Source: Gammaproteobacteria bacterium (GTDB lineage: Bacteria > Pseudomonadota > Gammaproteobacteria > GCA-001735895). From it: a stretch of 36,333 nucleotides of DNA. This document shows positions 76-29,563 of this stretch, one piece after another (position 1 is the stretch's first letter; every line of letters starts with the position of its first letter). The position numbers and the translations under genes were made by a program. Under the pieces are notes generated by a model. The model had not been told where the DNA came from and ran no database searches. It saw only the letters and a program-made list of their open reading frames with translations. Location of the stretch: assembly GCA_024763185.1 (NCBI GenBank), contig JANTFY010000002.1, forward strand, positions 1 to 36,333. The letters run 5' to 3'.

Positions 76-1079
76 GGTCTCCATTTTGTACTAGAAAAGC
101 CAACTTGAAGCTGGTGATGCGCGAGCGCCAGGTAGCAAATCCGGCGACAGTAACAATGCCCCCTTTTTGAAGAGATGCGCCAGTATTCGGTCTATGATTG
201 ACTGATCTTTAATACAGGCAATTATCCGGGCTTCGCCCCCGCACTTTGTGCAAATAGATACATCAATGTTGAAAACACGTTTGAGCATTTGCGCCCAGGT
301 CATTGCCTTGAGTCGCTTTTCTGGCATGCTGTCATCAATGGAATTTAGTGGACTTCCTTTTCCGCGTTTTGCCGGTGTCACATCTGCACGGAATTGTCTG
401 TTAGGCGCGAATACACCATGAAACCGTGTCAGATTCACCCTGGGCCTGGGTATGAGTGCAGCCAGTTTCGCGATGAAATCCATCGGCTCAAATATGACAT
501 GTGTGGTGCCGTCACTGTAGGGTGTTTTAAGCTGATAACGGATATTACCTGAAGATGTCAGAGAAATATGTCGTTCAGCGATAGCTGGCCTCGTGATATA
601 GCGACATAAATGCTCAAGCTTCTGCCGCTCCCAGACCTGAGTCGCCACCCGGGCGTGTAAACTGATTCCGGATTCTTTAGCCACCTGAGCAAACCGATCA
701 TCTTCATCCCAGGCAGGTATGGTTTGCAGGGTAAATACTTTCCGTCCTTGTTGCGGTCCCACGGTGATACGGTAACTAACCTTGCAACCGACTACCTGTT
801 GCATCGGGTCTTCATCAGCAGGCTCTAAATTTAAATAGCAATTCTCGGCTTAAGCATCCTGCGTCGCTCTACCTCCTGCATCCTTGCAGTCGTCATCGTC
901 CCGTTCGAGTATCCCTTCTCGCTCCAGAAATCCAGCCACCCGGCTGCTTAGCTTGTGGAGTAATTCTATCAATTCCTGTTGTTCCGGCTCGTTGATTCGC
1001 TTGAATCGCGTTTTACCGTATTGGTTCTTTATGAACACTCCGTCCAAAAACAGCATGTGGAAATGCACATTGAGATTAT

Positions 1080-3405: not shown

Positions 3406-3478
3406 AAAAACCCCCCCCCGAAAGCAGGGTCTTTTTTAATCCGATTACATCAATTGCTTCTTATAAACCAGAAGCAAT
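3406..3478 (-). terminator. 3' hairpin region of the cold-shock gene
   Basis: Perfect 9-bp stem ATTGCTTCT/AGAAGCAAT (3453-3478) lies 21 nt after the stop. Next comes a GC stem flanked by A- and T-runs around a C9 tract (3406-3437). Confidence 0.45.
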
Positions 3479-3498
3479 CAACGCGAATAGAAATTAAA

Positions 3499-3702
3499 CT
3501 ATTCAGCTGTAACGTTTGCAGCCTGCGGGCCTTTAGGTCCTGATTCAACGTCAAAATTGACCGTCTGGCCTTCATTCAACACTTTGAAACCTGAACCCTG
3601 GATCGCAGAATAATGGACAAAAACGTCCGCACTGCCATCAGAAGGAGAAATAAAGCCGAAGCCCTTGGATTCGTTAAACCACTTAACGGTACCTGTAGTC
3701 AT
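3499..3702 (-). CDS. CspA-family cold-shock protein
   Basis: 67 aa. [15 protein letters not shown] (RNP1) and VFVHYSAI (RNP2). About 240 nt of upstream non-coding leader, as is usual for csp genes. Confidence 0.95.
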
Positions 3703-3941
3703 GATAATTACCTTTAAAAAATGAAAATATAATCATGTGCATATCACAACAAGGTAATTACAGGAAAGACCGGGGTGGAACTTCTGGCAAACTTAATGGA
3801 CGTGCAACTGATTGTAAAAAACCAACGCTTAATTGAATCTGCCAGGCATCTACAATTAAGGGTCAGCGTGATACAGTATATACCAAATAATTCACATTTC
3901 ACCTTTTTTTAAGGTGACCGGCATGGCTGCATAAAACTCTA

Positions 3942-17934: not shown

Positions 17935-18117
17935 ATGGACTGGTTGAAAATAGTGTCCGCTTTAATGCTGGTGGCAATGATGTTTATGCTCTATCCCAGC
18001 CTTAAACATGCAACCAAAAACTCTCCTGATGCCAGCAAGGAAGATTGGCTGTCAGTCATTAAACCACTGGTGTTTGTGGTTGTTTTTGTTATCGCATTGA
18101 TCATTCTGGTGCGCTGA
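17935..18117 (+). CDS. Small two-TM membrane protein, unknown function
   Basis: 60 aa with two hydrophobic helices separated by a polar loop. GGGGAA lies about 7 nt upstream of the ATG. Confidence 0.45.
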   Translation: MDWLKIVSALMLVAMMFMLYPSLKHATKNSPDASKEDWLSVIKPLVFVVVFVIALIILVR

Positions 18118-18201: not shown

Positions 18202-19701
18202 CTAGTCGAGCTTAATGGAAGGTGTGTTTAATTCCAGGGAAGTTGATTCTACCGATTTCAGGTCATCCAGTGCTTCCTTCCGCCCGGACGGATTAGCAAA
18301 ACTGTCATTCAACTTTTGTACAAAGTGCCCTGAATTCTCGATCACAGCCTGAATCTTTCGAGCGGTGCGCCGGCTCCACCCGACCGGTGAGGTATTGAAT
18401 ACACTCCTCCAGATACTGGTATTTTTATCAAAAGCCGTTACCAGATTACCTGGCATGTCAGAACGCGGTAAATGCCTGGATATGGTGGAAGCCCAGAATT
18501 GGCGTGTAAACAGATGCACGCCAAAAAATACGATAAAAACCAGCACTAGCGTTAAAACGCCGGTTAAAGGGTTTGCCTGATAAGAATCTATTAACGCGCT
18601 GGGTTTGAGGTAATGCCAGGCATCCTGCGTTGTAACCACGTAGGCAAATAAGCCAAGTAGCAGGCCGTAAATAACGGTATTACTGATCAATACGCGATTA
18701 CTCCACTTGCGAATAGCCTCTTTCAGGGCCGGTACCGCTTTGGTTTCTATATCATTGGCGGTTTTTTCAAGTGCTCCGATAATTCGGTAAGCCCTCTCAG
18801 TCTCAACCTGCTGCATGCGGTCATAAATCGCATCCAGGTCGGCATCTTTTTTGGTCTTAAAACGTTCCTGAAGTTTTCCATCACTGATATTGATGGCCGA
18901 GGCTTCATCATAGATCATGTAAAACTTTCCAGCCGTCAGCCCGCTTTGCGACAAAGCTCGTTGCCAGGCACCGACGACCTCTTCCGGATTATCTTCTTTA
19001 GCAGCCGTATCAATCTGATTAAGAATATATAAAAACTTGCTGGAGTCGGTTCGCTGAATGGTTTTAGTGACCAGGTGTTCCAGGGTATCCTTCATCGCAC
19101 CGGGCTCAGGATGACGGGCATCAAAAAACACCAAAACCAGGTCTGAAAGATCAATAATATGGTCGGTAATTCTCAGGGTTGAGTTGCGTTGGGCATCCGC
19201 GTCAAAACCGGGTGAATCGATTAGTATCTTGCCCTTGATAGGTTGTGTGGGACTGGTTTTTAGCTGCAGGTAGGCATTCACCCTTTCACCCTCTCCCGGA
19301 GCAACCTTTTCGATATCTTCACTGATATTAAAAAACGGAAATCGCGGGTCTGCATCAAGAGCCAAGCCGGGTAAAACCCGCGAGCTGTTATCATTGGTAT
19401 AACAAATCACCGTGAATTTATCATCAACAGCCTGATTGCCGGATGACTGTAGCTTTGTACCCAGAAAAGAATTGATAAAGGTGGATTTACCGGCGGAAAA
19501 GGTCCCCAATACAGAGATTAATGGCCACCAGGGTATCTGTGTGGCATAAGATTCATCCCGCGATATCAGGCCCATTCGATAGGCTATATTGTCCAGTTCC
19601 TTGAAACTTTTTACCGCCTCAATAAGGATTGGGTTTTCCTGCTTAAGGTGTTTTTCGAGATTTTTAAGACGGTTCTCTATCGCTTTCCTGGGGTAGAACA
19701 T
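18202..19701 (-). CDS. Membrane-anchored dynamin-like GTPase
   Basis: 499 aa. G1 GTFSAGKST, G3 DSPG, G4-like NQID. Two adjacent hydrophobic helices sit near residues 345-400 (VIYGLLLGLFAYVV, VLTLVLVFIVFFGVHLF). The start is 32 nt downstream of the preceding gene. Confidence 0.7.
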   Translation of the reverse strand: MFYPRKAIENRLKNLEKHLKQENPILIEAVKSFKELDNIAYRMGLISRDESYATQIPWWPLISVLGTFSAGKSTFINSFLGTKLQSSGNQAVDDKFTVICYTNDNSSRVLPGLALDADPRFPFFNISEDIEKVAPGEGERVNAYLQLKTSPTQPIKGKILIDSPGFDADAQRNSTLRITDHIIDLSDLVLVFFDARHPEPGAMKDTLEHLVTKTIQRTDSSKFLYILNQIDTAAKEDNPEEVVGAWQRALSQSGLTAGKFYMIYDEASAINISDGKLQERFKTKKDADLDAIYDRMQQVETERAYRIIGALEKTANDIETKAVPALKEAIRKWSNRVLISNTVIYGLLLGLFAYVVTTQDAWHYLKPSALIDSYQANPLTGVLTLVLVFIVFFGVHLFTRQFWASTISRHLPRSDMPGNLVTAFDKNTSIWRSVFNTSPVGWSRRTARKIQAVIENSGHFVQKLNDSFANPSGRKEALDDLKSVESTSLELNTPSIKLD

Positions 19702-19733: not shown

Positions 19734-20180
19734 TTAGGGTATAAAACCGGTAAACATGCCCATCGGTTTGGATAAGTCACGCATATCACGGCGCATATAG
19801 TAGGTGGAAGCCGCCATTGAATTGGTGTTGTAGGTCATGGTAGCAACATTCTGCGTCATACTTTTGATATTGTTATCCATGTTGCCAATATTATTACCCA
19901 TTTTGACCATGGTGTGATCCATGGTTCTGACGGTATTAGTTAATTCATTCATATTTCTGTCAACTGATATCGTCAGAGTGGTGATCGTCAGACTCAGGTT
20001 GTGTACGTCGCGAGATAAGGTGTAAATCAGATAAAACCCATAAACCGCTAAAACAATGAAAGCAATCATCGAAGGATAAACAATCAATTCCCAGCGCTTG
20101 GCACTGTTTTCAAACGTATCGGCTAAACGCTCCATACATTCGTTATCAAGATTTATCTTGGGTTCAGATTTATTCATCAA
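19734..20180 (-). CDS. Single-pass membrane protein with a Met/Asn-rich heptad coiled coil, unknown family
   Basis: 148 aa. TM at about residues 31-55. After it, Met occupies the same heptad position seven consecutive times (residues 87, 94, 101, 108, 115, 122, 129). Confidence 0.6.
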   Translation of the reverse strand: MMNKSEPKINLDNECMERLADTFENSAKRWELIVYPSMIAFIVLAVYGFYLIYTLSRDVHNLSLTITTLTISVDRNMNELTNTVRTMDHTMVKMGNNIGNMDNNIKSMTQNVATMTYNTNSMAASTYYMRRDMRDLSKPMGMFTGFIP

Positions 20181-20383: not shown

Positions 20384-20989
20384 TTATTGCATCAACTTTC
20401 TTTTAAGTTCTTCACCCAGTTCTCTGTTCATAGCCGTCACCGGTGAGACCAATTGTCGGGCATGCTCGTATTGATTGTTTTTAATTAACGCCATGGCTGC
20501 CTGATAGTAATGGCGGGCTGCATTCGGAAAATCATTCAACGCATAATAAATATTACCCAATTCTCCGAGGTAATCTGCATTATCTTTTTCTTTCTGTATC
20601 AATTGTTGATAACTGGCGATGGCTTTTTGATAGTCTTTATCCCAGTAAGCCTTACGAGCCTGAAAAAGTAATTCATCCTGCTCAATGATTACTTCTGAAA
20701 CCGTTGGTTGGCTCTCTATGAAAACTACTTCTTTTTGATCCGATACAGAAGTTTGTTGTTCTCTTGAAACAATGCTTTCGGGCTGACTTTCAACGGATTC
20801 ATTTTTGGCCGGTTGTGTTTGGTCTTTTTCAGGCTCAACAGTACGGCTTAGAGTTTTATCATCAAGATTTAATAACTGTTGATAAGCCTGTTCAAGCTGT
20901 AACTCTTCACGAAAGTAGTAACCTAAAATCATCAGGCTAACCAAAAATATTGAAAAGCTATGGATTAGCAACCAACGTCCGAAAGTCAT
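20384..20989 (-). CDS. Membrane-anchored TPR-repeat protein
   Basis: 201 aa. N-terminal TM (LLIHSFSIFLVSLMILGYY), an acidic/polar linker, and C-terminal TPR-like repeats (AYWDKDYQKAIASYQQLI, LGNIYYALNDFPNAARHYYQA). Starts 10 nt after the ParA-like gene. Confidence 0.65.
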   Translation of the reverse strand: MTFGRWLLIHSFSIFLVSLMILGYYFREELQLEQAYQQLLNLDDKTLSRTVEPEKDQTQPAKNESVESQPESIVSREQQTSVSDQKEVVFIESQPTVSEVIIEQDELLFQARKAYWDKDYQKAIASYQQLIQKEKDNADYLGELGNIYYALNDFPNAARHYYQAAMALIKNNQYEHARQLVSPVTAMNRELGEELKRKLMQ

Positions 20990-20999
20990 GACGGTTTTC

Positions 21000-21635
21000 T
21001 CACTTTTTTGCCGGGTAAAGCTGTTTGGCCAAGTTCAATACTTCCCTGGCTGCCTTACTGGTGGGTTGCATTTCAAAAACCGCCAGACCTTCACTGAAAG
21101 AACGTCGGTAAGCTGTTCTCTGGTAGAGACGCAAATCGATACGGTCGATATGTTTAAGGAAATTTAATGCCTCTTCTGCCTCGTCTGTTTCGCGAACGCC
21201 CCAATGCGTATCCGCGCGGTTGATAAATCCCAGGACTGGTGGCATTTTTTCAGCACTGCCGGACACTTCACGAATAATTTTCAGAAATCTCTGAGTAGAC
21301 CAGATATCAGCCTGACTTGGGGGTACGGGAGTTATAATTCGATCAGCCAGTTTCAATGCTTTTTTCATTGAATCGAAATCCGATGTACCAACATCAACGA
21401 TAACTTCGGTTTTTTTATTTTTCCAGGATTTTAAGGCCGATACATCGTCAAAAACTTCCAGATCAGGATCGTAGCCTTCCTCTTCCCTAATATCGACCAC
21501 GTCTGCCAGAGTTTTTTGGGGATCCAGGTCAAACAAGGTGATAGAACCCTGCTTAATTTTCAACCAGACTGCAAGGTTAAAAGCAACCGTGCTTTTTCCT
21601 GTGCCTCCTTTCAGGTTTCCGATAACAGTAATCAT
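21000..21635 (-). CDS. Orphan ParA/MinD-family ATPase (short form, no HTH)
   Basis: 211 aa. Deviant Walker A GNLKGGTGKST with the signature Lys, A' DLDPQ, and Walker B VIVDVG. Confidence 0.8.
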   Translation of the reverse strand: MITVIGNLKGGTGKSTVAFNLAVWLKIKQGSITLFDLDPQKTLADVVDIREEEGYDPDLEVFDDVSALKSWKNKKTEVIVDVGTSDFDSMKKALKLADRIITPVPPSQADIWSTQRFLKIIREVSGSAEKMPPVLGFINRADTHWGVRETDEAEEALNFLKHIDRIDLRLYQRTAYRRSFSEGLAVFEMQPTSKAAREVLNLAKQLYPAKK

Positions 21636-21740: not shown

Positions 21741-22493
21741 TTATTTCACCGCGTTAACTTTGTCGTTTTCAATTATTTTTTTTTCGTAACCTACCGGTAT
21801 AGTAAAGAGCTTATCAGGAATATTTTCAACCACTATATGTTTCAACTCCTGAGAATTTCCATTTGAAAAAGTTTCACGAATGCTGATTTTCAATTCTTTA
21901 TCAAACCATTGCAGACTTTCCTGTACTTCCCCATTGGACAGCTTGATTCGCTGCACCCACTTCTCTGTATCCCGGTTGTCTATTTTCTCACTGCCCAGCC
22001 ATTCCAGCTCGATGGATGTACCGTTAAATAAAGTATGTTTTACCGGTATCATTAATTCCGAATCGAGCCATAGATGCGAAATCAGTTCCTTATCTCCTTC
22101 GTGAGCAATAATCTTCCATTGAATAGCCTGGCGATTATTCAACTCCTGCTTCCCCAGATTTTCACATTTCAGGGCTTTATTACCTTCACAGGGTGAGTCA
22201 ACAGCACTTTCTATACCGATATTAATCTCTTCCAGCGACTTGTTCTCGTAACATAATTGCTGGTCGGTAAAACACATCAGGCTGATGTGCTTATTGGCAT
22301 CAAGTATTTGAATAACCGGCTCTCCATAATAAAAAAATTCCTTACGGATTCGCCCTGATGAGTAATAAAGCTGAGTTGAAATATCTGCCCGCCCCGGAGT
22401 GGACATGACAGCATTGGCGGAAAACTGGATAGCCTGAACAGGTGATGCAAAAAAACAGAGTTGTAACAACAGAATAAAGATAAAAGGCTTCAT
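21741..22493 (-). CDS. Secreted/periplasmic protein with two Cys pairs, unknown function (possibly a LolA-like beta fold)
   Basis: 250 aa. Signal peptide ...FFASPVQA|IQ. Cys pairs CFTDQQLC and CEGNKALKC. An alternating beta-strand-like pattern fills the rest. Starts 2 nt after the preceding gene. Confidence 0.6.
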   Translation of the reverse strand: MKPFIFILLLQLCFFASPVQAIQFSANAVMSTPGRADISTQLYYSSGRIRKEFFYYGEPVIQILDANKHISLMCFTDQQLCYENKSLEEINIGIESAVDSPCEGNKALKCENLGKQELNNRQAIQWKIIAHEGDKELISHLWLDSELMIPVKHTLFNGTSIELEWLGSEKIDNRDTEKWVQRIKLSNGEVQESLQWFDKELKISIRETFSNGNSQELKHIVVENIPDKLFTIPVGYEKKIIENDKVNAVK

Positions 22494-22495
22494 TT

Positions 22496-23137
22496 TTAGA
22501 ACATGTTGAACGGTGTGAATGGAAAATCAAGTTTGTCTTCACCACCTAATCCGGGCATGATGCCATTAAAAAATGGTCCCATCATTGCCGGGTTAGTGTC
22601 GCGGAAAATACCATCGGTATATTTGGACTGAAATTCATCCATGCCTCCAAAACCAGGCATGCCGGTACTACCCGGAGGATTATAATAATTAGGATGGCGT
22701 GGATAGATACCAGGGCTTGTACCATAACCAGCATTACCGGCAGGATACCTGCCTGACAAATCCCAGGGATTTGAAGAAATATCACTGGCAGGAGGAAGCG
22801 CTGGTGGCAGACGTCGTTCCGATTCCTGTTCAGCCCAGGGATTATATGGACCATTCACCTGACCATATTGTGGGAACCTGGGAGTATGCTCACGCACGAA
22901 GTTGTAGTGCGGAAAATTGTATCGCTGAGGTGGCTCGACTGTAGTACTTTCCGGTGAAAATTTCATGTTCTCCTGCATTTTAGAGTCCGCATGTTTGTTG
23001 CTCTGAACAGTACCCGACAAGGTTCCGGGAGCGGTCAACAGAATCGTTTTCGAAGCATCTTGTTCAGCGATATTTGCCTCGGCAAAAACTCCGGTGGGAA
23101 TCAACAAAAAAATGTTGATCATCAACTGTTTAATCAT
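22496..23137 (-). CDS. Secreted low-complexity Pro/Tyr/Asn/Gly/Met-rich protein 2
   Basis: I chose the start at the internal ATG 23137 (MIKQLMINIFLLIPTGVFA|EA signal peptide), 1 nt after the upstream stop. The longer track ORF (to 23302) would overlap the upstream gene. No Cys. Motifs FPQYGQ, YNPW, MPGFGG and IMPGLGG. Confidence 0.65.
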   Translation of the reverse strand: MIKQLMINIFLLIPTGVFAEANIAEQDASKTILLTAPGTLSGTVQSNKHADSKMQENMKFSPESTTVEPPQRYNFPHYNFVREHTPRFPQYGQVNGPYNPWAEQESERRLPPALPPASDISSNPWDLSGRYPAGNAGYGTSPGIYPRHPNYYNPPGSTGMPGFGGMDEFQSKYTDGIFRDTNPAMMGPFFNGIMPGLGGEDKLDFPFTPFNMF

Positions 23138-23138
23138 A

Positions 23139-23768
23139 CTAACGTCCGGAAAAGAATTGTTGCATCGGCATAACTGACCAGGGAGTCGGCATCGAGTTAT
23201 AAGGACTGTCCATTGAATTGTAACGGTTAGAGTAGTCGTACATATAGGGATTGACATAACCGCCCTGAGCATAAGGATATGGAGCTGTGGGCCACGTTCC
23301 ACCTTGATACGGCAATTGCCCCTGATGATATTGAGGAAACTGGGATTGTTGACCTATCGACCAGGGATTATTATAGGGAGGATAATTCGCTGCGGGGGGC
23401 ATATTTCTCGGGCCTGGTTCTAAGGCCTGAGTTTCATAACCCGCTGTAGGTGCGCCCTGAATAAAGCCCTGATCAGTCTCTGGTGGCATTTCGGCTTGTA
23501 AGCCTTTATCAGCACTACCAGGAAAGGACTGACTGCCCTTTTCAACAGTAGACTGAGTCTGTGTCTGCATAGAGTCCTGATGAATTAAATCTTCGGTAGG
23601 GAACTTATAGATCTGGGGTTGTTGTACCGAGTTTTTTTCCACGCTATTTATTATCACAGACGACTGGTAGGGTCCAGTAGGTGGTGGCACATATTCATTA
23701 GCAATTGCCAAAGGCGAAACCAGTAACAGCAAAGCTGTCAAACTCAATCCTACTGCATTCATTTTCAT
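23139..23768 (-). CDS. Secreted low-complexity Pro/Tyr/Asn/Gln/Met-rich protein 1
   Basis: 209 aa. Signal peptide ...VSPLAIA|NEY. No Cys. The C-terminal half reads PPYNNPWSIGQQSQFPQYHQGQLPYQGGTWPTAPYPYAQGGYVNPYMYDYSNRYNSMDSPYNSMPTPW. Starts 15 nt after the RND gene. Confidence 0.65.
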   Translation of the reverse strand: MKMNAVGLSLTALLLLVSPLAIANEYVPPPTGPYQSSVIINSVEKNSVQQPQIYKFPTEDLIHQDSMQTQTQSTVEKGSQSFPGSADKGLQAEMPPETDQGFIQGAPTAGYETQALEPGPRNMPPAANYPPYNNPWSIGQQSQFPQYHQGQLPYQGGTWPTAPYPYAQGGYVNPYMYDYSNRYNSMDSPYNSMPTPWSVMPMQQFFSGR

Positions 23769-23783
23769 AACAACCTCACAAAA

Positions 23784-26700
23784 CTAGTCATCATCAATAT
23801 CAGACTTTAAGCGAATGCCTCTTCGATGACCAGATTTTGATTTATCAGAAGTATTTTTAGTAGTGGATGATTTTTTCACCGACTTTTTCAGCGCTGGCTT
23901 CTTAGTTTCAGCGGTAGCTTTTGCTGCCTCTTTTTTGGCCGTTTTCTTTTTTACCACTTTTTTAGCGGCTGGCTTTATAACTGGTTTGGATGTTGTATCA
24001 TCCAGATTAACATCACCTGAATTTTCATTTTCTGACGGTTTATCTGCCACTTGATCAACCATTGGTGAATCCAAATCGACATCCGTATCTGCAGATTGTG
24101 TCTTCGTGGTTATCTCTTTTTTGGTTTCTGTCGCCACTTTTTGCTCGGACGTTGAATCCAATGCTGCCGCTTGTTCTTTTAACTGAGATGCTGCTGGCTG
24201 CGCGGGTTTAAGCGCGGCAGGCGGATTTTCTTTATGAGCGCTTTTACGCGTCAACAATCGAATCAGGCTTTTTGTCAATGCCACAATGAAGTCCCAAAAG
24301 GCAACCACCAGGGAGAGGATGACTATCCAGATAAAATTAATAGTTGCCGCCAGATAATCGATCAGGCCTTTTTCATCCTCTTCTTTTTTTGTCGGCTCAT
24401 ATTCTCCGGACAGAATCGGATCATGGGGTAAGTCCGCATATACCGCAGCGCCACTGGCATCGATGGTTTTTTCAGCAAATGCCTTGCGTACAGAGATTGC
24501 ACCCAGCGGAATAACCACCAGTGTCAAAACGGTGGAAACCAGTACACCGAAAGCCAGCGAAATAGCCATTCCTTTGAAGATCGGATCAAAAATGATGACA
24601 CCTGAACCACCCACCAGGGCCAGGGCTGTCACCACGATGGGCCGGGTCCTGGCCTTACAGGCCAACAATACCGAGTCAGTGACCGGCCGACCATCTTCGA
24701 TTTCATGCTTGGTGAAATCCACCAACAGAATCGAGTTACGTACGATAATACCGGCCAGTGCGATGAAGCCAATCATAGACGTAGCTGTAAATTCGGCCCC
24801 GAATAACCAGTGACCGGGAATGATACCCACCAATGTTAAGGGTATCGGCGCCATAATGACAGCCGGCAGGCTGAAATTACCGAATTCCATCACCACCAGC
24901 ATATAAATCAGAATAATCGCCGCGCCAAATGCCATACCCATATCTCTGAAAGTTTCATAGGTAACAGTCCATTCACCGGCCCATTCAAAACCCGATTGCG
25001 AATCCGATTCGGGAGGCGCCGTCCAGGTGCCCTTCAGCTCAATACCATCCGGCGAGGTATAATTCTCCAGGGAATCAATAACATCGAACATGCCATAAAT
25101 CGGGGCCCCCAGGCGCCCCTGGGTTTCACCGGTTACATATTCAACACGGCGCAAATCCTTATGGTAGATGACCTGTTCCTGGTCTATCTGATAGAAATCG
25201 CCCAACTCACCGAGTGGAACTGTTCCTCCAAATTGACTCGGGACAGGCATCTCTTTTAAACGAGGTAAATCAGCCCTGACTTCGATAGGCACCTGCATCA
25301 CAATAAAGGTAGGCTCGAGTTTGTAACCACTTTTCACGTCTCCCAGAATATAGTCGCCCAGGGACATTTGTAAGGTTCGGTTTATGGTGTCAACTGAAAT
25401 GCCACGCCTGACCGCTTTTTCGGTCTCTACTTCAAATCGCCAAACCTTGTAGGGATCGGCTATAAGCGTATCAACATCGGTGATGTTGGACGATTCAATG
25501 AATTTTTGCTCCAGATCCCTGGCAACCTGTCGTCGAATCTCGTCATCCGGTCCATACACCTCAGCTACCACGGACTGCAGCACAGGAGGCCCCGGCGGCA
25601 TCTCGACGACCTGTATCTTAACCAGGTCATTGCCTTCAATGACTTTCAATAATCGCGCTCTTGCATCTTCTGCTATTTGGTGGCTGCTGCGCTTACGATC
25701 CTTTTTATCAAGTAGCAACACCTGGATGTCCGCTTCCCAAGGTTGGGAACGCAGGTAATAATGGCGTACCAGACCGTTAAAATTAAATGGAGAAGCTGTT
25801 CCCACGTAGGTCTGTAAAGAAGTTACTTCTTCAATTTCCAGCAGGGTATTGGATAGTTCATTGACCACATTTGCCGTCAATGGCAGTGCGGTGCCTTCTT
25901 TCATGTTTACAACCACGTTGAATTCGGGTTTGTTATCCAGGGGTAACATCTTGACCGGCACACTCTTAGTGTAAAATAGGGATATACACAAAAAGAACAC
26001 CACAAACAGGCTGATTAAAAACAAACGTCCCTTGGTTTTGCTGGTAATCAGTGGGATCAGGGTTTTACGAAAAAGCTTACCCAACCATTCATTCTGGGTA
26101 TGCTCAGATTCCTCCATTTCCTTGAGTTTTTCCATGGAGGGTTTGATGCGCATGGCCAGCCACGGGGTAAACATAAAGGCGGCAAACACGGAGAATAGCA
26201 TGGCGAATGAACCCAATGCCGGGATTGGCTCCATATAAGGCCCCATCATACCGCGCACAAAACCCATGGGTAGTAGCGCCGCGATAACGGTCAGCGTCGC
26301 CAGAATGGTGGGATTACCCACTTCACGTACCGCATCAATAGCTATATCGGTATCGGTACTTTCATCAATTAACCATCGACGATAGATATTCTCGACAACC
26401 ACAATGGCATCATCGACCAGTATACCGATGGAGAATATCAAGGCGAAAAGACTGACACGATCAATGGTATAGCCGGTCAGCAACGCATAAAAAACGGTCA
26501 CCAGGATTACCACCGGAATAACAATCGCCACAACCAGTGCCGGTTCCCAGCGGAAGTTTAATGCTGCCCAGATCAACACGACCACGATGCCGGTAGCAAT
26601 AAACAGCTTAAGAATCAGTCCATTTACCTTGTCTTCGGCGGTTTTACCATAGTTACGTGTTATCTCAACGTGGATATCTTCAGGAATAACATTCCCCTTC

Positions 26701-27707
26701 ATACCTTCGACTTTAGCCAGGATATCCTCGGCTACCTTGACGCCATTGGAGCCTTTCTTCTTGGCAATCGCCACAGTAACGGCTGAAGCGGCATAGGCTT
26801 CTTCTTGGCCTTCAGCAAGTTGGGCGGGAGCGGTATAATAGTTAACGATTCGTGTGGTATCCGATGGAGCAGCCGTGACCTTGGCGATGTCCCGAACATA
26901 AACTGGGGAACCATCTTTGATGGTCACAACCAGGCTTTCCACGTCTCGCTCAGTTTTCAGGAAAGAACCTGAATAGACCTTTGAACTCTGGTCGCTCTGT
27001 TCAATACTGCCTAAACCCAGTTGGCTATTCGCGGTACGGATTGTCTGGGCGATCTGATCCAGACTTATGTCGTAACCCGACAATTTTTCCGGAAGTACTT
27101 CTATTTTTAACTGATCTGGACGCCCACCCACGACAAACCCCTGACTGGCATTTTCCACCGAACTGATATTTTGCAGAATATCCAAGCCTACCAAACGCAA
27201 TACAGAATCGTCATGATGGTTAGACCACAAGGTAATAGTCACCACCGGTACATCATCCACACCTTTCGGTTTTACCAGTGGTTGATCAACACCGGGAGGT
27301 ATTTTGTCCATGTTGGAAGAAATCTTGTCGTAGAGTTTGACCAGGGAATCCTCCAGAACCTCACCCACATCAAACTGGACAGTAACCATACCCTGGTCTC
27401 GCATGGCCGCGGCATAAACATGATCCACACCAGACATTTCACTCAGCATGCGCTGCAGCGGTTCGGTAGCCAGCGAGGCCACCTGTTGTGCCGAGGCACC
27501 CTTATAACTGACAAAAACATCGACCATCGGCACGGAAATCTGGGGATCTTCCTGACGTGGTGTCAGCATCACGCCCACCAAACCCAAGGCAAAGCAGGCT
27601 ACAAGTAAAAGAGGAGAAAGTGGTGAATGAATAAACGCTTTCGCCAGGCCACCGGCTATACCCAATGATTTGTTTTTTTGATTGTCGCTAGTAGGTTGAT
27701 TTGTCAT
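23784..27707 (-). CDS. RND-superfamily efflux permease (AcrB-like core) with a ~230-aa C-terminal extension
   Basis: 1307 aa. AcrB-type architecture: N-terminal TM, two large periplasmic loops and 12 TM segments. Then an extra ~30-residue hydrophobic segment and a Lys/Ala/Thr-rich disordered tail. Confidence 0.85.
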   Translation of the reverse strand: MTNQPTSDNQKNKSLGIAGGLAKAFIHSPLSPLLLVACFALGLVGVMLTPRQEDPQISVPMVDVFVSYKGASAQQVASLATEPLQRMLSEMSGVDHVYAAAMRDQGMVTVQFDVGEVLEDSLVKLYDKISSNMDKIPPGVDQPLVKPKGVDDVPVVTITLWSNHHDDSVLRLVGLDILQNISSVENASQGFVVGGRPDQLKIEVLPEKLSGYDISLDQIAQTIRTANSQLGLGSIEQSDQSSKVYSGSFLKTERDVESLVVTIKDGSPVYVRDIAKVTAAPSDTTRIVNYYTAPAQLAEGQEEAYAASAVTVAIAKKKGSNGVKVAEDILAKVEGMKGNVIPEDIHVEITRNYGKTAEDKVNGLILKLFIATGIVVVLIWAALNFRWEPALVVAIVIPVVILVTVFYALLTGYTIDRVSLFALIFSIGILVDDAIVVVENIYRRWLIDESTDTDIAIDAVREVGNPTILATLTVIAALLPMGFVRGMMGPYMEPIPALGSFAMLFSVFAAFMFTPWLAMRIKPSMEKLKEMEESEHTQNEWLGKLFRKTLIPLITSKTKGRLFLISLFVVFFLCISLFYTKSVPVKMLPLDNKPEFNVVVNMKEGTALPLTANVVNELSNTLLEIEEVTSLQTYVGTASPFNFNGLVRHYYLRSQPWEADIQVLLLDKKDRKRSSHQIAEDARARLLKVIEGNDLVKIQVVEMPPGPPVLQSVVAEVYGPDDEIRRQVARDLEQKFIESSNITDVDTLIADPYKVWRFEVETEKAVRRGISVDTINRTLQMSLGDYILGDVKSGYKLEPTFIVMQVPIEVRADLPRLKEMPVPSQFGGTVPLGELGDFYQIDQEQVIYHKDLRRVEYVTGETQGRLGAPIYGMFDVIDSLENYTSPDGIELKGTWTAPPESDSQSGFEWAGEWTVTYETFRDMGMAFGAAIILIYMLVVMEFGNFSLPAVIMAPIPLTLVGIIPGHWLFGAEFTATSMIGFIALAGIIVRNSILLVDFTKHEIEDGRPVTDSVLLACKARTRPIVVTALALVGGSGVIIFDPIFKGMAISLAFGVLVSTVLTLVVIPLGAISVRKAFAEKTIDASGAAVYADLPHDPILSGEYEPTKKEEDEKGLIDYLAATINFIWIVILSLVVAFWDFIVALTKSLIRLLTRKSAHKENPPAALKPAQPAASQLKEQAAALDSTSEQKVATETKKEITTKTQSADTDVDLDSPMVDQVADKPSENENSGDVNLDDTTSKPVIKPAAKKVVKKKTAKKEAAKATAETKKPALKKSVKKSSTTKNTSDKSKSGHRRGIRLKSDIDDD

Positions 27708-27761: not shown

Positions 27762-28931
27762 CTAACCATTAGAGCCGGATGAAATATTTTGTAGATCTGG
27801 TGACCAGCCGGATTTGATCGTTTTGGGTGGGTCACTGATTATGCGGTCACCGGTTTTGATGCCGGAAAGCACGGTGACTCTGGATTTATCATATTCCGAG
27901 CCCAGACGAACAATTTTCATTCGAGCTTTGTTTTCATCATCCAATATATAAACAATTGGTAGACTACCGCGGTAAATCACAGCATTTTTAGGAATCACTG
28001 GAACCGGCTTTTTAACGGAGGAAGTGTCATTGATGGTCACTTCCGCATACAGGCCCGGACCACCGGGAGAACCTTCAGGCAAATCAAATTTTACGGTAAC
28101 CGTATGTTTTTGTTGATCGGCGACTGGATATATTTGCGCCACCTTGGCCTTGGTATAAGTATTGTTAATGTCGAGCTTGACATCCACCAGGCTACCTTTG
28201 GTCAGGCCGAATATAAGTTTTGCGGGTACTTCAGCCTGAATTCTGAGGTATTGCGTATGGGCAAATTTCAATAAAGGTGTACCCGGTTGTACCGTATCAC
28301 CCTCTTCCACCATTTTTCGGACCAGTTTGCCATCAAATGGAGCGATGGCCCGAGCATCACGTAATTTGGCATCGAGTTCATCCAGAGCGGAGCGGGCAGC
28401 CAAAACTGCCGACTCGGCATTTTTAACCTGCGCACCGGATGAATATAAATCGCCATAGCGTTCGATATCTGAGTTGCCCACACCCATCGCGTTACCCATG
28501 TTCCGTGTAAAAACGTTGTCAAATAAATTGGGCAGGCCCATACCGGGCATTGTGGTCAGGCTTTCACTACGCGGGGAAATCAACTCTCGTGAATACTGTA
28601 CCCTGGCATTGCGTAAACTCGCTTCAGCATTGGCCAGTTGGGCCAGTGCAGCACGACGTTTCGCGACCAGATCATCGTCATCAATGGACAGTAACAGATT
28701 GTTTTTCTGGAAATAGTCGCCTTCAGAACCGGCAATATATTGAACCCTGCCTGGCACCTGGGCAGACAATGTGACTTCTTTATATGGAATTATCGTTCCA
28801 CCGATTTTTATACGGTTGCCAAATTCTGCGGCTTCAACAGTCATTAACTGCCACGCCTGAGGGGCTGAAGAAAATAACGTTAAAATCGTCCCCATTAACA
28901 GGGTAGATTTAAATGGATAATTTATATTCAT
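27762..28931 (-). CDS. RND periplasmic adaptor (membrane fusion protein, HlyD/AcrA family)
   Basis: 389 aa. Signal/anchor sequence, lipoyl-like half motifs (VTLSAQVPGRV ... IAPFDGKLV), an alpha-hairpin with a non-helical insert, and beta-barrel and MP domains. Lies directly upstream of the RND gene. Confidence 0.85.
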   Translation of the reverse strand: MNINYPFKSTLLMGTILTLFSSAPQAWQLMTVEAAEFGNRIKIGGTIIPYKEVTLSAQVPGRVQYIAGSEGDYFQKNNLLLSIDDDDLVAKRRAALAQLANAEASLRNARVQYSRELISPRSESLTTMPGMGLPNLFDNVFTRNMGNAMGVGNSDIERYGDLYSSGAQVKNAESAVLAARSALDELDAKLRDARAIAPFDGKLVRKMVEEGDTVQPGTPLLKFAHTQYLRIQAEVPAKLIFGLTKGSLVDVKLDINNTYTKAKVAQIYPVADQQKHTVTVKFDLPEGSPGGPGLYAEVTINDTSSVKKPVPVIPKNAVIYRGSLPIVYILDDENKARMKIVRLGSEYDKSRVTVLSGIKTGDRIISDPPKTIKSGWSPDLQNISSGSNG

Positions 28932-29563
28932 TGTTATATTACCAATATCAGCAAATCAGGCTTTTTTACCTGAGGTATTTATTTAACTGTGTAAGTAAAC
29001 TTTACAAAAAAGCTATATAGCCTTTATCGTCAATCATCGGCTTACGTATCTTCTACATAAAACCACCTTGCGTTAATGTGCGGTCATATTTGAGGACTGA
29101 TAGCTGATAGTTTTCAAGCAATTCAACCAGCATTTTCCTAGGATTGTAGTATTTCAATCCGGTTACAGATTTATGACACCTAAAATTTTCAAAAAACCTT
29201 CCTTGAAAAACTGAACCAAACTGAGTCCAGGTAAACTCTAGCTAACCCAGAAATCACGCATAAAATCCATGGTGCAAATAAACCAGCTGTTACCATAATA
29301 AGGAGCAGATAGAAGCAACACCTTGTTGGTAAAAACATGTTTTTATATTCTTGGGCTATATACGACCTTAAGAAAAACCCATTCTGAAGCAGTGAAGTCT
29401 ATCAAGAAATCACTATATTGGCACAATAAATTATGCCTGTTTTTTACAACGATCCTTCATTCAGTTAACCAAAAAACTTGCGTATATTAGCATTTGTTAA
29501 TATTTAATACAAGTTAATAAGCGGCAAGGTGCTTGCATCGGGACTTAGCAAGCTTTTTAGAAA

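What the first reader, a model, noticed from the sequence alone, without database searches (positions are those of the whole stretch)
22496..23768. Tandem genes for secreted, Cys-free, Pro/Tyr/Asn/Gln/Gly/Met-rich low-complexity proteins inside an RND operon
Both products have clear Sec signal peptides followed by ~190 residues almost devoid of aliphatic runs. They are dense in P, Y, N, Q, G and M (for example PYPYAQGGYVNPYMYDYSNRYNSMDSPYNSMPTPW and YPRHPNYYNPPGSTGMPGFGGMDEF). They share short motifs in swapped order: FPQYHQ and NNPW in protein 1, FPQYGQ and YNPW/SNPW in protein 2. This suggests divergent paralogues or convergent composition. Aromatic- and Pro-rich disordered proteins of this kind are typical of structural matrices, adhesives, phase-separating scaffolds and inclusion envelopes. 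They are not typical of efflux accessory proteins. Their position between the pump and a periplasmic protein is unusual.
Basis: seen in the sequence. Interest (0 to 1): 0.68.

Follow-up and report, generated by a model that had tools for sequence, protein, structure and literature searches.

The report
Secreted disordered proteins in sulfur-bacterium pump operon
Two real, conserved genes encode floppy, exported proteins belonging to a previously undescribed nine-gene cell-envelope machine of sulfur-oxidising bacteria, and in sister species the same operon slot also holds a canonical sulfur-globule protein gene, so they may help build or anchor periplasmic sulfur deposits.

Summary
P1 (23139-23768, minus strand) and P2 (22496-23137, minus strand) are tightly packed genes for Sec-exported, Cys-free proteins. 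P+Y+N+Q+G+M make up 54% and 44% of them, against 24% in neighbouring proteins. Both are under purifying selection (dN/dS about 0.2), match no Pfam, NCBIfam or PDB family, and P2 is predicted disordered (AlphaFold pLDDT 49).

Invariant short motifs sit in otherwise fast-drifting sequence. P1/P2 are 28-55% identical between genomes whose neighbouring proteins are mostly 65-90% identical.

They always lie in one nine-gene cluster: a membrane-fusion adaptor with a hairpin-tip insert, an RND pump with a Lys-rich tail, P1, P2, a LolA-fold protein, ParA, an anchored TPR protein, a Met-rich DUF948-like protein, and a membrane dynamin-like GTPase. Versions of this cluster occur in Thiohalomonadaceae, Thiogranum, Sedimenticola, Chromatiaceae and Ca. 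Thiodiazotropha. In 13 sister genomes a Pfam SGP sulphur-globule-protein gene sits between P2 and the LolA-like gene.

Best reading (confidence about 0.4): P1/P2 are periplasmic linker or coat proteins tying a hydrophobic sulfur deposit to this machine.

The parts
23139..23768 (-). P1 gene: 209-aa secreted, Cys-free, disordered protein
   Evidence: ORF and translation. 15 word-search homologues and 53 in the exhaustive HMM search, all 129-243 aa and nearly all full-length matches. dN/dS about 0.2. No Pfam, NCBIfam or PDB match.
23700..23768 (-). P1 Sec signal peptide (MKMNAVGLSLTALLLLVSPLAIA | NE)
   Evidence: Read from the sequence. The AxA-type site is conserved directly before the first invariant motif in all orthologues.
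23643..23693 (-). P1 N-terminal motif YVPPPTGPYQSSVIINS (core PPxGP[YF])
   Evidence: Invariant columns Y26-P30, G32-Y34. The motif is almost exclusive to the ORF after the RND gene (46 of 48 occurrences).
23586..23612 (-). P1 motif IYKFPTEDL (Y.F.P..DL)
   Evidence: Y54, F56 and P57 are invariant.
23361..23372 (-). P1 NNPW motif
   Evidence: N134 (near-invariant), P135 and W136 (invariant). This is the only patch that aligns with P2.
23142..23195 (-). P1 C-terminal motif SMPTPWSVMPMQQFFSGR (MPxPW..MP..PFFsG)
   Evidence: M193, P194, P196, W197, F205 and F206 are invariant.
22496..23137 (-). P2 gene: 213-aa secreted, Cys-free, disordered protein
   Evidence: AlphaFold mean pLDDT 49, pTM 0.15, no secondary structure beyond the signal peptide. 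dN/dS 0.07-0.3.
23081..23137 (-). P2 Sec signal peptide (MIKQLMINIFLLIPTGVFA | EA)
23012..23044 (-). P2 motif ILLTAPGTLSG (GT[LIV][STD]G)
   Evidence: Nearly invariant columns L33-T39 and G42.
22859..22876 (-). P2 motif FPQYGQ
   Evidence: P89, Q90 and Q93 invariant, F88, Y91 and G92 nearly so. The motif degenerates in the most distant core-clade subgroup, L010, L011, L024 and L026.
22763..22843 (-). P2 region holding two invariant NPW motifs (22835-22843 and 22763-22771)
   Evidence: N99-W101 and N123-W125 are invariant. Both are kept in every orthologue, including the distant subgroup.
22586..22609 (-). P2 motif IFRDTNPA
   Evidence: R179, D180 and N182-A184 are invariant.
22499..22558 (-). 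P2 C-terminal motifs MPGLGG ... FPFTPFNMF-COOH, ending in an aromatic residue
   Evidence: P195, G196, P206-F213 invariant or nearly so. 19 of 20 orthologues end in F or W; L008 ends GMFK.
27762..28931 (-). Membrane-fusion (adaptor) protein of the pump. A conserved 45-aa insert lies at the alpha-hairpin tip (28434-28568, SESLTTMPGMGLPNLFDN...DLYSSG)
   Evidence: Pfam HlyD and TIGR01730 matches. The insert is conserved across 13 genomes and in Sedimenticola.
23784..27707 (-). RND permease (1307 aa) with a 240-aa C-terminal extension: an extra hydrophobic helix, a variable acidic/Pro stretch, a Lys-rich block and an invariant end RRGIRLKSDIDDD (23787-23825)
   Evidence: ACR_tran E = 2.7e-131. 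Best PDB relatives are HAE1 pumps. Tail alignment. The tail is absent exactly where ParA is absent.
21741..22493 (-). P3: secreted 250-aa all-beta protein with four invariant Cys and a LolA-superfamily fold
   Evidence: 101 homologues. Alignment. AlphaFold pLDDT 85.5. Top Foldseek hits are LolA3, NE2245, EPDR1, RseB, LolA/LolB and LprG/LppX.
21000..21635 (-). ParA/MinD-type ATPase (211 aa)
   Evidence: Pfam CbiA/MipZ; NF041546 ParA_partition at 124 bits, below its cut-off.
20384..20989 (-). TPR protein with an N-terminal membrane anchor and a variable linker
   Evidence: Pfam TPR_19/16/2. Orthologue sequences. The periplasmic orientation of the TPR part is inferred from flanking charges.
19734..20180 (-). 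DUF948-like membrane protein with a Met-rich C-terminal half (19734-19928)
   Evidence: Sub-threshold Pfam DUF948 match, 30.7 bits against a cut-off of 37.2. 15 Met in 148 residues.
18202..19701 (-). Dynamin-like GTPase (499 aa) with a transmembrane hairpin
   Evidence: Dynamin_N E = 1.2e-14. Nearest solved relatives are EHD ATPases. Weak LeoA/LeoBC hits. 320 genomes hold relatives.

Best explanation
P1 and P2 are Sec-exported, intrinsically disordered periplasmic proteins. They are the fast-evolving 'soft' subunits of a conserved envelope machine.

The machine is encoded by: a membrane-fusion adaptor with a hairpin-tip insert; an RND pump with a Lys-rich tail; P1; P2; a LolA-fold protein (P3); ParA; a membrane-anchored TPR protein; a Met-rich DUF948-like protein; and a membrane dynamin-like GTPase. 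Outside the unnamed clade of this window, every named genome that holds the machine or its dynamin belongs to a sulfur-oxidising, Chromatiales-type gammaproteobacterial group.

Proposed mechanism. The invariant short motifs dock onto the folded periplasmic parts. In P1 these are PPxGP[YF], Y.F.P..DL, NPW and MPxPW..PFF. In P2 they are GTLxG, FPQYGQ, two NPW, RDTNPA and MPGLG..FPFxPF-COOH. The likely partners are P3, the adaptor tip loops and the TPR domain. The Pro/aromatic/Met-rich spacers act as flexible tethers or a coat against a hydrophobic deposit, most likely zero-valent sulfur. P1/P2 would then link periplasmic sulfur globules, or their SGP envelope, to a pump/LolA-like module that moves hydrophobic sulfur. 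ParA, acting through the pump's cytoplasmic tail, and the dynamin would position and shape the site.

Shown: the genes are real, the products have signal peptides, P2 is predicted disordered, the motifs are conserved, synteny is strict, P3 has a LolA fold, an SGP gene sits in sister operons, and the pump tail co-occurs with ParA.

Inferred: which partners bind which motifs, the cargo, and the link to sulfur globules in this particular organism.
For: Genes real and constrained.

Exported and disordered: signal peptides in all 20 orthologue pairs. The composition lies on the disordered side of the charge-hydropathy boundary. P2 has AlphaFold pLDDT 49, whereas P3 reached 85.5 with the same method.

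Short-motif architecture: P1/P2 are 28-55% identical where neighbouring proteins are mostly 65-90% identical. The motifs survive even in a high-GC member (L023) whose spacers are re-coded to Ala/Pro/Gly. The motifs are specific to the slot.

Strict 1:1 synteny and very short or overlapping intergenic gaps in 20 core genomes.

Hydrophobic cargo: P3 has a LolA-superfamily fold. The pump is of the hydrophobe/amphiphile (HAE1) type and keeps charged residues at the proton-relay positions.

Precedent: a LolA-fold protein binding a periplasmic partner protein exists in RseB-RseA. The 3m4w entry is among the Foldseek hits.

Sulfur link: a Pfam SGP gene scores 37-46 bits (cut-off 26.7) between the P2-like and P3 genes in 13 distinct genomes, and 8 shuffled controls gave no hit. 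Every named taxon with the cluster or its dynamin is a sulfur oxidiser: Thiohalomonadaceae, Thiogranum, Sedimenticola, Chromatiaceae, Ca. Thiodiazotropha, Thiolapillus. In Allochromatium vinosum the sgpD gene lies next to hydrophobe/amphiphile exporter genes (PMC10386293).

Adaptor link: the adaptor tip insert MPGMGLPxLFDN resembles P2's MPGLG..FDFPF.
Against: P1/P2 are not themselves SGP-family members (hhalign probability below 1%; no Pfam hit).

The core clade that includes this window carries no SGP gene within the cluster. Nothing in the 36-kb window shows that this organism oxidises sulfur.

The taxonomic restriction could simply reflect vertical inheritance in one order and have nothing to do with sulfur.

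In A. vinosum the gene downstream of sgpD (Alvin_2516) does not respond to sulfide or thiosulfate as sgpD does, and sgpD appears to be its own transcription unit (PMC10386293).

No binding partner has been tested.

A global HMM of core-clade P1/P2 does not reach the sister-cluster proteins, so orthology there rests on slot position plus motifs.

Sedimenticola, Chromatiaceae and Thiodiazotropha use a different type of disordered protein, with [FWY]RP repeats, in this position.
Confidence: 0.4

Rival explanations
1. P1/P2 are generic accessory or adaptor subunits of an RND-based exporter of a lipid or other hydrophobic molecule, with no connection to sulfur. They tether the pump/adaptor complex and the LolA-like carrier across the periplasm. 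The SGP gene in sister operons is a passenger.
For: The architecture of an RND pump plus a LolA-fold periplasmic protein recalls mycobacterial MmpL7/LppX and LprG/Rv1410 lipid export (PMC8427324, PMC4709180; fold hits to LprG and LppX). The short-motif pattern, close gene packing and strict synteny fit this reading. No sulfur genes appear in the window.
Against: It does not explain why 13 genomes place an SGP gene inside the operon. It does not explain why every named carrier is a sulfur oxidiser. It gives no role to ParA or the dynamin.
Confidence: 0.25
2. P1/P2 are cargo, not subunits. After Sec export they are threaded unfolded through the adaptor/outer-membrane channel and form an extracellular or surface matrix or adhesive.
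For: They are Cys-free, unfolded and encoded directly after the pump. They have conserved C-terminal motifs and evolve fast, as surface proteins often do. The Pro/Tyr/Gly/Asn-rich composition fits.
Against: To my knowledge RND pumps are not known to move polypeptides of about 20 kDa. Five or more invariant motifs spread along each chain, including one right after the signal-peptidase site, argue for multivalent docking rather than a single export signal. No outer-membrane channel gene is in the cluster.
Confidence: 0.1
3. P1/P2 are sticker-and-spacer proteins that phase-separate into a periplasmic gel or condensate, nucleated on the adaptor tip loops, which concentrates or gates the machine's cargo.
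For: Aromatic residues are about 13% and sit in G/S/N/Q/P spacers with few charged or aliphatic residues. P2 is predicted disordered. The adaptor insert has similar MPGxG/F motifs.
Against: The high proline content and the sharply defined invariant motifs fit specific docking better than bulk condensation.
Confidence: 0.1
4. P1/P2 are periplasmic Cu(I)/Ag(I) sponges or chaperones like SilE or CusF, serving a metal-efflux RND pump.
For: Met content is moderately raised (4.1-4.3% against 2.5%). P1 in this window carries W-x-x-M-x-M, the spacing I recall (unchecked) for the CusF Cu(I) site. SilE is a disordered periplasmic protein encoded in an RND operon (PMC5008109).
Against: Paired M/H motifs number 0-5 per protein and are absent from more than half of the orthologues. 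His is rare. The pump scores far better on multidrug/HAE models than on the CusA/CzcA model (416 against 214 bits, where the CusA/CzcA cut-off is 701).
Confidence: 0.03
5. P1/P2 act on housekeeping envelope hubs. Their NPW motifs would dock onto TolB, as the colicin E9 TolB-binding epitope does. P2's aromatic C-terminus would address PDZ proteases or sensors of the DegS/DegP type.
For: Colicin E9 residues 26-67 contain ...SDGSGWSSENNPWGGG.... This lies in its disordered TolB-binding region, which I place at residues 32-47 from memory. P2 has SSNPWDLSG and P1 has YNNPWSIG. 19 of 20 P2 orthologues end in F or W.
Against: Only three residues are shared, and the DGSGW part of the TolB box is missing. 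This reading does not explain the dedicated operon partners.
Confidence: 0.05

Closest known systems
Sulfur globule proteins SgpA/B/C (Pfam PF17228 SGP) and SgpD of Allochromatium vinosum
   Same: All have a Sec signal peptide and a periplasmic destination. All have low-complexity, aromatic- and Pro-rich sequence with no enzymatic domain. An SGP gene shares the operon slot with P1/P2 homologues in 13 sister genomes. sgpD lies beside hydrophobe/amphiphile exporter genes (PMC10386293).
   Different: P1/P2 do not match the SGP profile. They are about 20 kDa rather than 11-13 kDa. They are Pro/Gln/Asn-rich with discrete invariant motifs rather than Gly/Tyr repeats. The paper describes the three envelope Sgps as 'extremely hydrophobic', which P1/P2 are not. 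sgp genes of A. vinosum are monocistronic, whereas P1/P2 are embedded in a pump operon.
SilE (with SilCBA) and CusF (with CusCBA)
   Same: These are small secreted periplasmic proteins encoded in RND efflux operons. SilE is intrinsically disordered (PMC5008109).
   Different: SilE works through arrays of HxxM/MxxH metal sites, and P1/P2 lack conserved sites of that kind. The pump here is not of the CusA/CzcA type.
Disordered translocation domain of colicin E9 (TolB-binding epitope)
   Same: It is a natively disordered Gly/Ser/Asn/Trp-rich chain in the periplasm that works through short docking epitopes, and it contains NNPW.
   Different: It is an imported toxin domain, not an endogenous operon product. 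Only NPW is shared; the DGSGW box is absent.
LolA-fold carriers working with RND or MFS transporters (LppX-MmpL7, LprG-Rv1410), and RseB-RseA
   Same: A LolA-superfamily periplasmic protein (P3) is encoded next to an RND pump. RseB shows that a LolA-fold protein can hold a periplasmic partner protein (RseA).
   Different: These comparisons concern P3, not P1/P2. No known system of this kind has dedicated disordered partner proteins, a ParA or a dynamin.
ParA/MinD-type positioning of cargo or envelope machines (McdA-McdB for carboxysomes, TadZ, BcsQ). From general knowledge, not tested here.
   Same: A small ParA-type ATPase sits in the operon. The pump's Lys-rich tail with the invariant end RRGIRLKSDIDDD is present only where ParA is present. 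It looks like a ParA-partner peptide.
   Different: The putative cargo here would be periplasmic and linked through a transporter. No ParB or McdB homologue is present.

Membership tests
Sulphur globule protein family (Pfam PF17228 SGP; SgpA/B/C) | Sequence matches the SGP profile above the gathering score | tested here: not met
   No Pfam hit for P1, P2 or any of their 28 aligned homologues, even at E = 1. hhalign against the SGP-type alignment A5 gives probability below 1%. The neighbouring gene in sister operons does match, at 37-46 bits against a cut-off of 26.7.
Sulphur globule protein family (Pfam PF17228 SGP; SgpA/B/C) | Sec signal peptide and periplasmic destination | tested here: met
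   Signal peptides with AxA-type sites occur in all 20 orthologue pairs.
Sulphur globule protein family (Pfam PF17228 SGP; SgpA/B/C) | Physically part of the envelope of sulfur globules | not testable with these tools
   This needs a globule proteome or fluorescent fusions, as was done for SgpD (PMC10386293).
Sulphur globule protein family (Pfam PF17228 SGP; SgpA/B/C) | Encoded by a sulfur-storing sulfur oxidiser | tested here: inconclusive
   Relatives of the cluster occur in Thiohalomonadaceae, Thiogranum, Sedimenticola, Chromatiaceae and Ca. Thiodiazotropha. The window organism is an unnamed MAG, and no sulfur genes lie in its 36 kb.
SilE / CusF-type periplasmic metal binders | Conserved arrays of Met/His metal-binding motifs (HxxM, MxxH, MxM) | tested here: not met
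   There are 0-5 such pairs per protein and none in more than half of the orthologues. His is 0-6 residues per protein.
SilE / CusF-type periplasmic metal binders | Partner pump of the heavy-metal (CusA/CzcA) RND family | tested here: not met
   The CusA/CzcA model TIGR00914 scores 214 bits against a cut-off of 701. The generic multidrug RND model scores 416. The best PDB relatives are HAE1 pumps.
Colicin-type TolB-binding epitope | TolB box DGSGW followed by ..NNPW | tested here: not met
   Only NPW is present. No [DE]G[ST]GW occurs in any orthologue. The colicin E9 sequence was verified.
Intrinsically disordered proteins acting through short linear motifs | No stable fold, and conservation confined to short motifs within fast-evolving spacers | tested here: met
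   P2 has pLDDT 49 and pTM 0.15. The composition lies on the disordered side. Motif and spacer pattern. Identity is 28-55% against mostly 65-90% for neighbours.
Components of an RND tripartite-pump operon | Co-oriented and tightly linked with the adaptor and RND genes, and conserved with them | tested here: met
   Gaps of 15, 1 and 2 nt. The same order in all 20 core genomes and in sister clusters.
LolA superfamily (applies to neighbour P3, not to P1/P2) | Open beta-barrel LolA-like fold | tested here: met
   AlphaFold pLDDT 85.5. Foldseek probability 1.0 to LolA3, NE2245, EPDR1, RseB and LolA, with modest TM scores of about 0.4. Pfam DUF4412 is only a weak hit.

The most novel reading that the evidence does not exclude
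The cluster encodes a previously unknown organelle-type machine for periplasmic sulfur globules. The RND pump and LolA-like carrier would load or unload hydrophobic zero-valent sulfur. P1/P2 would form a disordered, multivalent layer (possibly a condensate) that nucleates the globule and fastens it, with its SGP coat, to the adaptor tips. The pump's cytoplasmic Lys-rich tail would hand positional information from a nucleoid-bound ParA across the membrane, so that a periplasmic inclusion is spaced and inherited much as carboxysomes are. The membrane dynamin would shape the surrounding membrane.
Probability: 0.15. Interest if true: 0.9.

Novelty: new variant of a known kind. Interest (0 to 1): 0.7.

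Why it matters
How sulfur-oxidising bacteria nucleate, coat, position and re-mobilise periplasmic sulfur globules is largely unknown beyond the Sgp coat proteins. This cluster is present in cultured Sedimenticola, in lucinid-clam symbionts (Ca. Thiodiazotropha), in Chromatiaceae MAGs (the purple sulfur bacteria family) and in uncultured marine lineages. In some genomes it is physically linked to an SGP gene.

That gives a concrete, genetically testable candidate machine. It would also be the first RND pump operon I know of with dedicated disordered periplasmic subunits, and the first with a ParA-linked cytoplasmic tail. This widens what RND systems are thought to do.

Even if the sulfur link fails, P1 and P2 define two new families of periplasmic motif-bearing disordered proteins.

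Tried and rejected
- Known families. Pfam, NCBIfam, PADLOC and PDB sequence or profile searches of P1/P2 and their alignments found nothing.
- Paralogy of P1 and P2. Only a 12-column NPW patch aligns, so this is rejected as unsupported.
- FPQY as a shared motif. It is not conserved in P1.
- Metal-sponge idea. Met/His pair motifs are not conserved and the pump is not of the heavy-metal type.
- Anti-phage defence. Only weak LeoA/LeoBC hits for the dynamin.
- Riboswitch or leader upstream of the adaptor gene. No Rfam match, and little conservation of the 630-nt spacer.
- Promoter and terminator scans. Promoter-like counts were no higher than in shuffled sequence and no terminator-like site helped delimit the operon. 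The best promoter-like sites lie upstream of ParA and of the DUF948-like gene.
- AlphaFold model of a P3-linker-P2 fusion.
- Global HMMs of core-clade P1/P2. They do not reach the sister-cluster proteins, so slot position plus motif specificity was used instead.
- Early strand error. An early scan that looked at one strand only wrongly suggested that Sedimenticola-type genomes hold the dynamin alone. A six-frame check corrected this.
- Literature. Searches for this gene combination, or for an RND/dynamin link to sulfur globules, found no description.
- Organism. It could not be named: exact-sequence look-ups returned single-member clusters with no name, and relatives are labelled only 'Gammaproteobacteria bacterium'.
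Full report
**What is there.** On the minus strand the window carries a run of closely spaced genes:
- a membrane-fusion adaptor (27762-28931);
- an RND permease of 1307 aa (23784-27707);
- P1 (23139-23768, 209 aa);
- P2 (22496-23137, 213 aa);
- a 250-aa secreted protein, P3 (21741-22493);
- a ParA-type ATPase (21000-21635);
- a TPR protein with an N-terminal membrane anchor (20384-20989);
- a DUF948-like membrane protein (19734-20180);
- a 499-aa dynamin-like GTPase with a transmembrane hairpin (18202-19701).

P1 starts 15 nt after the pump's stop codon. P2's ATG lies 1 nt after the P1 stop, and P3's ATG lies 2 nt after the P2 stop. The longer GTG-initiated ORF that a mechanical scan reports for P2 is an upstream extension that overlaps P1. 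No orthologue has it.

Both proteins begin with a typical Sec signal peptide ending in an AxA-type site. After that come about 190 residues with no Cys. P+Y+N+Q+G+M make up 53.8% (P1) and 44.3% (P2), against 24.0% in 26 other proteins of the window. I+L+V+C make up 9% against 25%.

This is not chance and these are not spurious ORFs.
- Each protein has a small set of homologues: 15 and 13 in a 5.8-billion-protein word search. An exhaustive HMM search of 1.84 billion representatives with the P1 profile found 53, all 129-243 aa and nearly all matched end to end.
- Twenty distinct genomes keep both ORFs intact with signal peptides.
- dN/dS is 0.16-0.24 for the pairs with the lowest dS.
- Strongly conserved columns exceed every one of 20 composition-preserving shuffles.
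- None of the 40 mature orthologues has a Cys.

**How they evolve.** Between genomes in which the adaptor, pump, P3, ParA, DUF948-like protein and dynamin are mostly 65-90% identical to the window's copies (the TPR protein is 32-63%), P1 and P2 are only 28-55% identical. Conservation is concentrated in short motifs:
- P1: YVPPPxGPYQSSV directly after the signal-peptidase site, then Y.F.P..DL, NPW, a Tyr-rich patch, and a C-terminal MPxPW..MP..PFFsG.
- P2: (AP)GT[LIV][STD]G, F[PR]Q[YF]GQ, two NPW motifs, YRDTNPA, MPG[LF]G, and a C-terminal FPFxPF.MF or FPFMPW. 19 of 20 orthologues end in F or W.

A high-GC member (L023) has re-coded its spacers towards Ala/Pro/Gly but keeps the motifs. AlphaFold gives P2 a mean pLDDT of 49 and pTM of 0.15, with no secondary structure beyond the signal peptide. 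The same method gave 85.5 for P3. This is the signature of intrinsically disordered proteins that work through short linear motifs.

A profile comparison of P1 with P2 aligns just the NPW patch. Paralogy is therefore not supported.

**The surroundings.**
- P3 has four invariant Cys and a confidently predicted all-beta structure. Its best PDB matches are LolA3, the LolA-superfamily protein NE2245, EPDR1, RseB, LolA/LolB and LprG/LppX. It is a hydrophobic-ligand carrier fold, located in the periplasm.
- The pump is a distant HAE1-type RND protein that keeps charged residues at the proton-relay positions.
- The pump has a 240-aa C-terminal extension: an extra hydrophobic helix, a variable acidic/Pro stretch, a Lys-rich block and an invariant last peptide, RRGIRLK[SPT]D[IL]DD[EDK].
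- The adaptor's alpha-hairpin tip carries a conserved 45-residue insert...MPGMG[LM]PxLFDNxFTRN...DLYSSG. Its MPGxG and aromatic motif resembles P2's MPGLG..FDFPF.
- The DUF948-like protein has 15 Met in 148 residues.
- The dynamin's nearest solved relatives are EHD ATPases.

**Distribution.** A search seeded with P3 found about 100 protein clusters and about 15 species-level genomes. All are unnamed gammaproteobacterial MAGs, all have the same nine genes, and the cluster usually sits at the same chromosomal site after ispD.

A scan seeded with the dynamin widened the picture to 320 genomes. Thiohalomonadaceae, Thiogranum and related MAGs have the whole cluster at deep divergence: pump 54-58% identical, P3 26-32%. 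Sedimenticola (including cultured S. selenatireducens, S. thiotaurini and S. hydrogenitrophicus), Chromatiaceae MAGs and Ca. Thiodiazotropha have the dynamin transcribed divergently from adaptor, pump, a disordered protein, P3, another disordered protein and ParA. In these genomes the adaptor insert and the RRGIRLK tail are the same.

Every named carrier is a sulfur oxidiser. The secreted disordered proteins are always present but are the most plastic part. The PPxGPY/NPW/FPFxPF type is found in the window clade and in the Thiohalomonadaceae-type clusters. A different type, with [FWY]RP repeats, is found in Sedimenticola, Chromatiaceae and Thiodiazotropha.

Global HMMs do not bridge to the sister clusters. 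However, PP.GP[YF] is almost exclusive to the ORF after the pump gene (46 of 48 occurrences in 1.78 million residues), and FPF.PF is exclusive to the P2 slot (24 of 24).

**The sulfur clue.** In 13 distinct sister genomes a third secreted gene lies between the P2-like gene and P3. Its product (WWGPWNNNGWG...GDGDFSMSFSGKGRG.GYGYG...) matches Pfam PF17228 'Sulphur globule protein' at 37-46 bits (cut-off 26.7; E = 1e-9 to 1e-11), beginning exactly at the mature N-terminus in three of the four scanned. Eight shuffled versions gave no hit, so the match is not just composition.

P1 and P2 themselves are not SGP members. In Allochromatium vinosum, sgpD lies beside hydrophobe/amphiphile exporter genes, but the gene downstream of it does not respond to sulfide or thiosulfate as sgpD does (PMC10386293).

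**A second comparative clue.** In the three complete loci whose pump lacks the long tail (L104, L107, L117; fewer than 50 residues after the last core helix), ParA is absent and P3 is followed directly by the TPR gene. All loci with ParA have a tail of at least 230 residues. The tail and ParA therefore belong together.

**Most likely mechanism (confidence about 0.4).** P1 and P2 are periplasmic, multivalent linker or coat proteins. Their motifs dock onto the folded periplasmic parts: P3, the six adaptor tip loops, and the probably periplasmic TPR domain. Their aromatic/Met/Pro-rich spacers face a hydrophobic deposit, most plausibly zero-valent sulfur. The pump and LolA-like carrier would move that hydrophobic material. 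ParA, through the pump's tail, and the dynamin would position and shape the site.
- Shown: genes real, products carry signal peptides, P2 predicted disordered, motif architecture, synteny, LolA fold, SGP co-location, tail-ParA co-occurrence.
- Inferred: the partners, the cargo, and the sulfur connection for this particular organism. Its 36-kb contig holds only housekeeping genes.

**Rivals.**
- A generic hydrophobe or lipid exporter with disordered adaptor subunits and no sulfur link (0.25).
- P1/P2 as exported cargo forming a matrix or adhesive (0.1).
- A periplasmic condensate (0.1).
- Tol-Pal or PDZ decoys acting through NPW and the aromatic C-terminus (0.05). Colicin E9's disordered N-terminal region, where its TolB-binding epitope lies, does contain NNPW, but the DGSGW box is absent here.
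- A SilE/CusF-like metal sponge (0.03). Met/His motifs are not conserved and the pump is not of the heavy-metal type.

**Novelty.** No library family, solved structure or paper in the searched collection describes P1, P2 or this gene combination. Orthologues that carry a name are labelled 'hypothetical protein'. I rate it a new variant of a known kind: secreted low-complexity proteins associated with periplasmic sulfur storage and with RND operons. There is a real chance that the whole cluster is a new kind of machine. Homologous clusters in cultured Sedimenticola make the question experimentally tractable.

Noticed in passing
window 23784-24500 (minus strand; C-terminal 240 aa of the RND pump): The pump has an unusual extension after its last core helix: LPxDPILxG, an extra hydrophobic helix of about 27 aa, a variable acidic/Pro stretch (long PE repeats in L014), a Lys-rich block and an invariant last peptide RRGIRLKSDIDDD. 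The tail is missing exactly in the loci that lack ParA (L104, L107, L117). It looks like a ParA-partner peptide.
   Followed up: partly
window 28434-28568 (minus strand; adaptor residues 122-166): A conserved 45-aa Met/Gly/Pro/Phe-rich insert lies at the tip of the adaptor's alpha-hairpin, where adaptors normally meet the outer-membrane channel. It is conserved out to Sedimenticola. No outer-membrane channel gene is in the cluster.
   Followed up: partly
window 19734-19928 (minus strand; DUF948-like protein C-terminal half): This region is strikingly Met-rich (15 Met in 148 residues), with Met recurring at short intervals and an ending of PMGMFTGFIP. From the flanking charges it probably faces the periplasm.
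   Followed up: no
window 18202-19701 (minus strand): The membrane-anchored dynamin-like GTPase has EHD ATPases as its nearest solved relatives (E = 1.4e-5) and gives weak LeoA/LeoBC hits. Relatives at 54-61% identity occur in 320 species genomes; all the named ones among the 80 listed are sulfur oxidisers.
   Followed up: partly
L045, L054, L080, L090, L096, L104, L107, L108, L110, L111, L112, L117, L118 (between the P2-like gene and P3): A Pfam SGP sulphur-globule-protein gene is embedded in the orthologous operon. L105 and L115 carry tandem SGP-like genes outside the cluster. In L114 an SGP-like gene lies upstream of a distantly related adaptor/RND pair.
   Followed up: yes
L044 503-1414 and 2334-2768; L053 571-1503 and 2525-3136; L095 435-1634; L081 1835-3456 (minus strand): Sedimenticola, Chromatiaceae and Ca. 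Thiodiazotropha carry a different type of secreted disordered protein in the equivalent positions. These are rich in P/Y/R/Q/M and have many [FWY]RP repeats.
   Followed up: partly
L107 5003-5794; L117 5088-5819: In ParA-less variants of the cluster, one disordered protein has a lipoprotein-type signal (..LVSGC / ..VVGC), an NPW motif and a Gly/Tyr/Trp/Pro-rich C-terminus ending in W.
   Followed up: no
L055 6410-7255: This Thiohalomonadaceae MAG has P1-like and P2-like genes but no detectable P3 or SGP gene between the pump and ParA.
   Followed up: no
window 91-804 (minus strand): An ORF matches the Y2_Tnp putative transposase family near the contig edge, in an otherwise housekeeping neighbourhood.
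   Followed up: no
window 3448-3829 (minus strand): There is an Rfam cspA thermoregulator match just above its gathering score (79.3 against 78 bits).
   Followed up: no
window 17935-18117 (plus strand): A 60-aa ORF with two hydrophobic segments lies next to the Bax1-I family gene. A 60-aa gene is called at the same position in L001 and L003.
   Followed up: no
window 28932-29563: A 630-nt spacer separates ispD from the adaptor gene (up to 1.3 kb in L002 and L004). It has no Rfam match. Only the last 75 nt or so and a short AT-rich patch near 29480-29511 are conserved between loci.
   Followed up: partly
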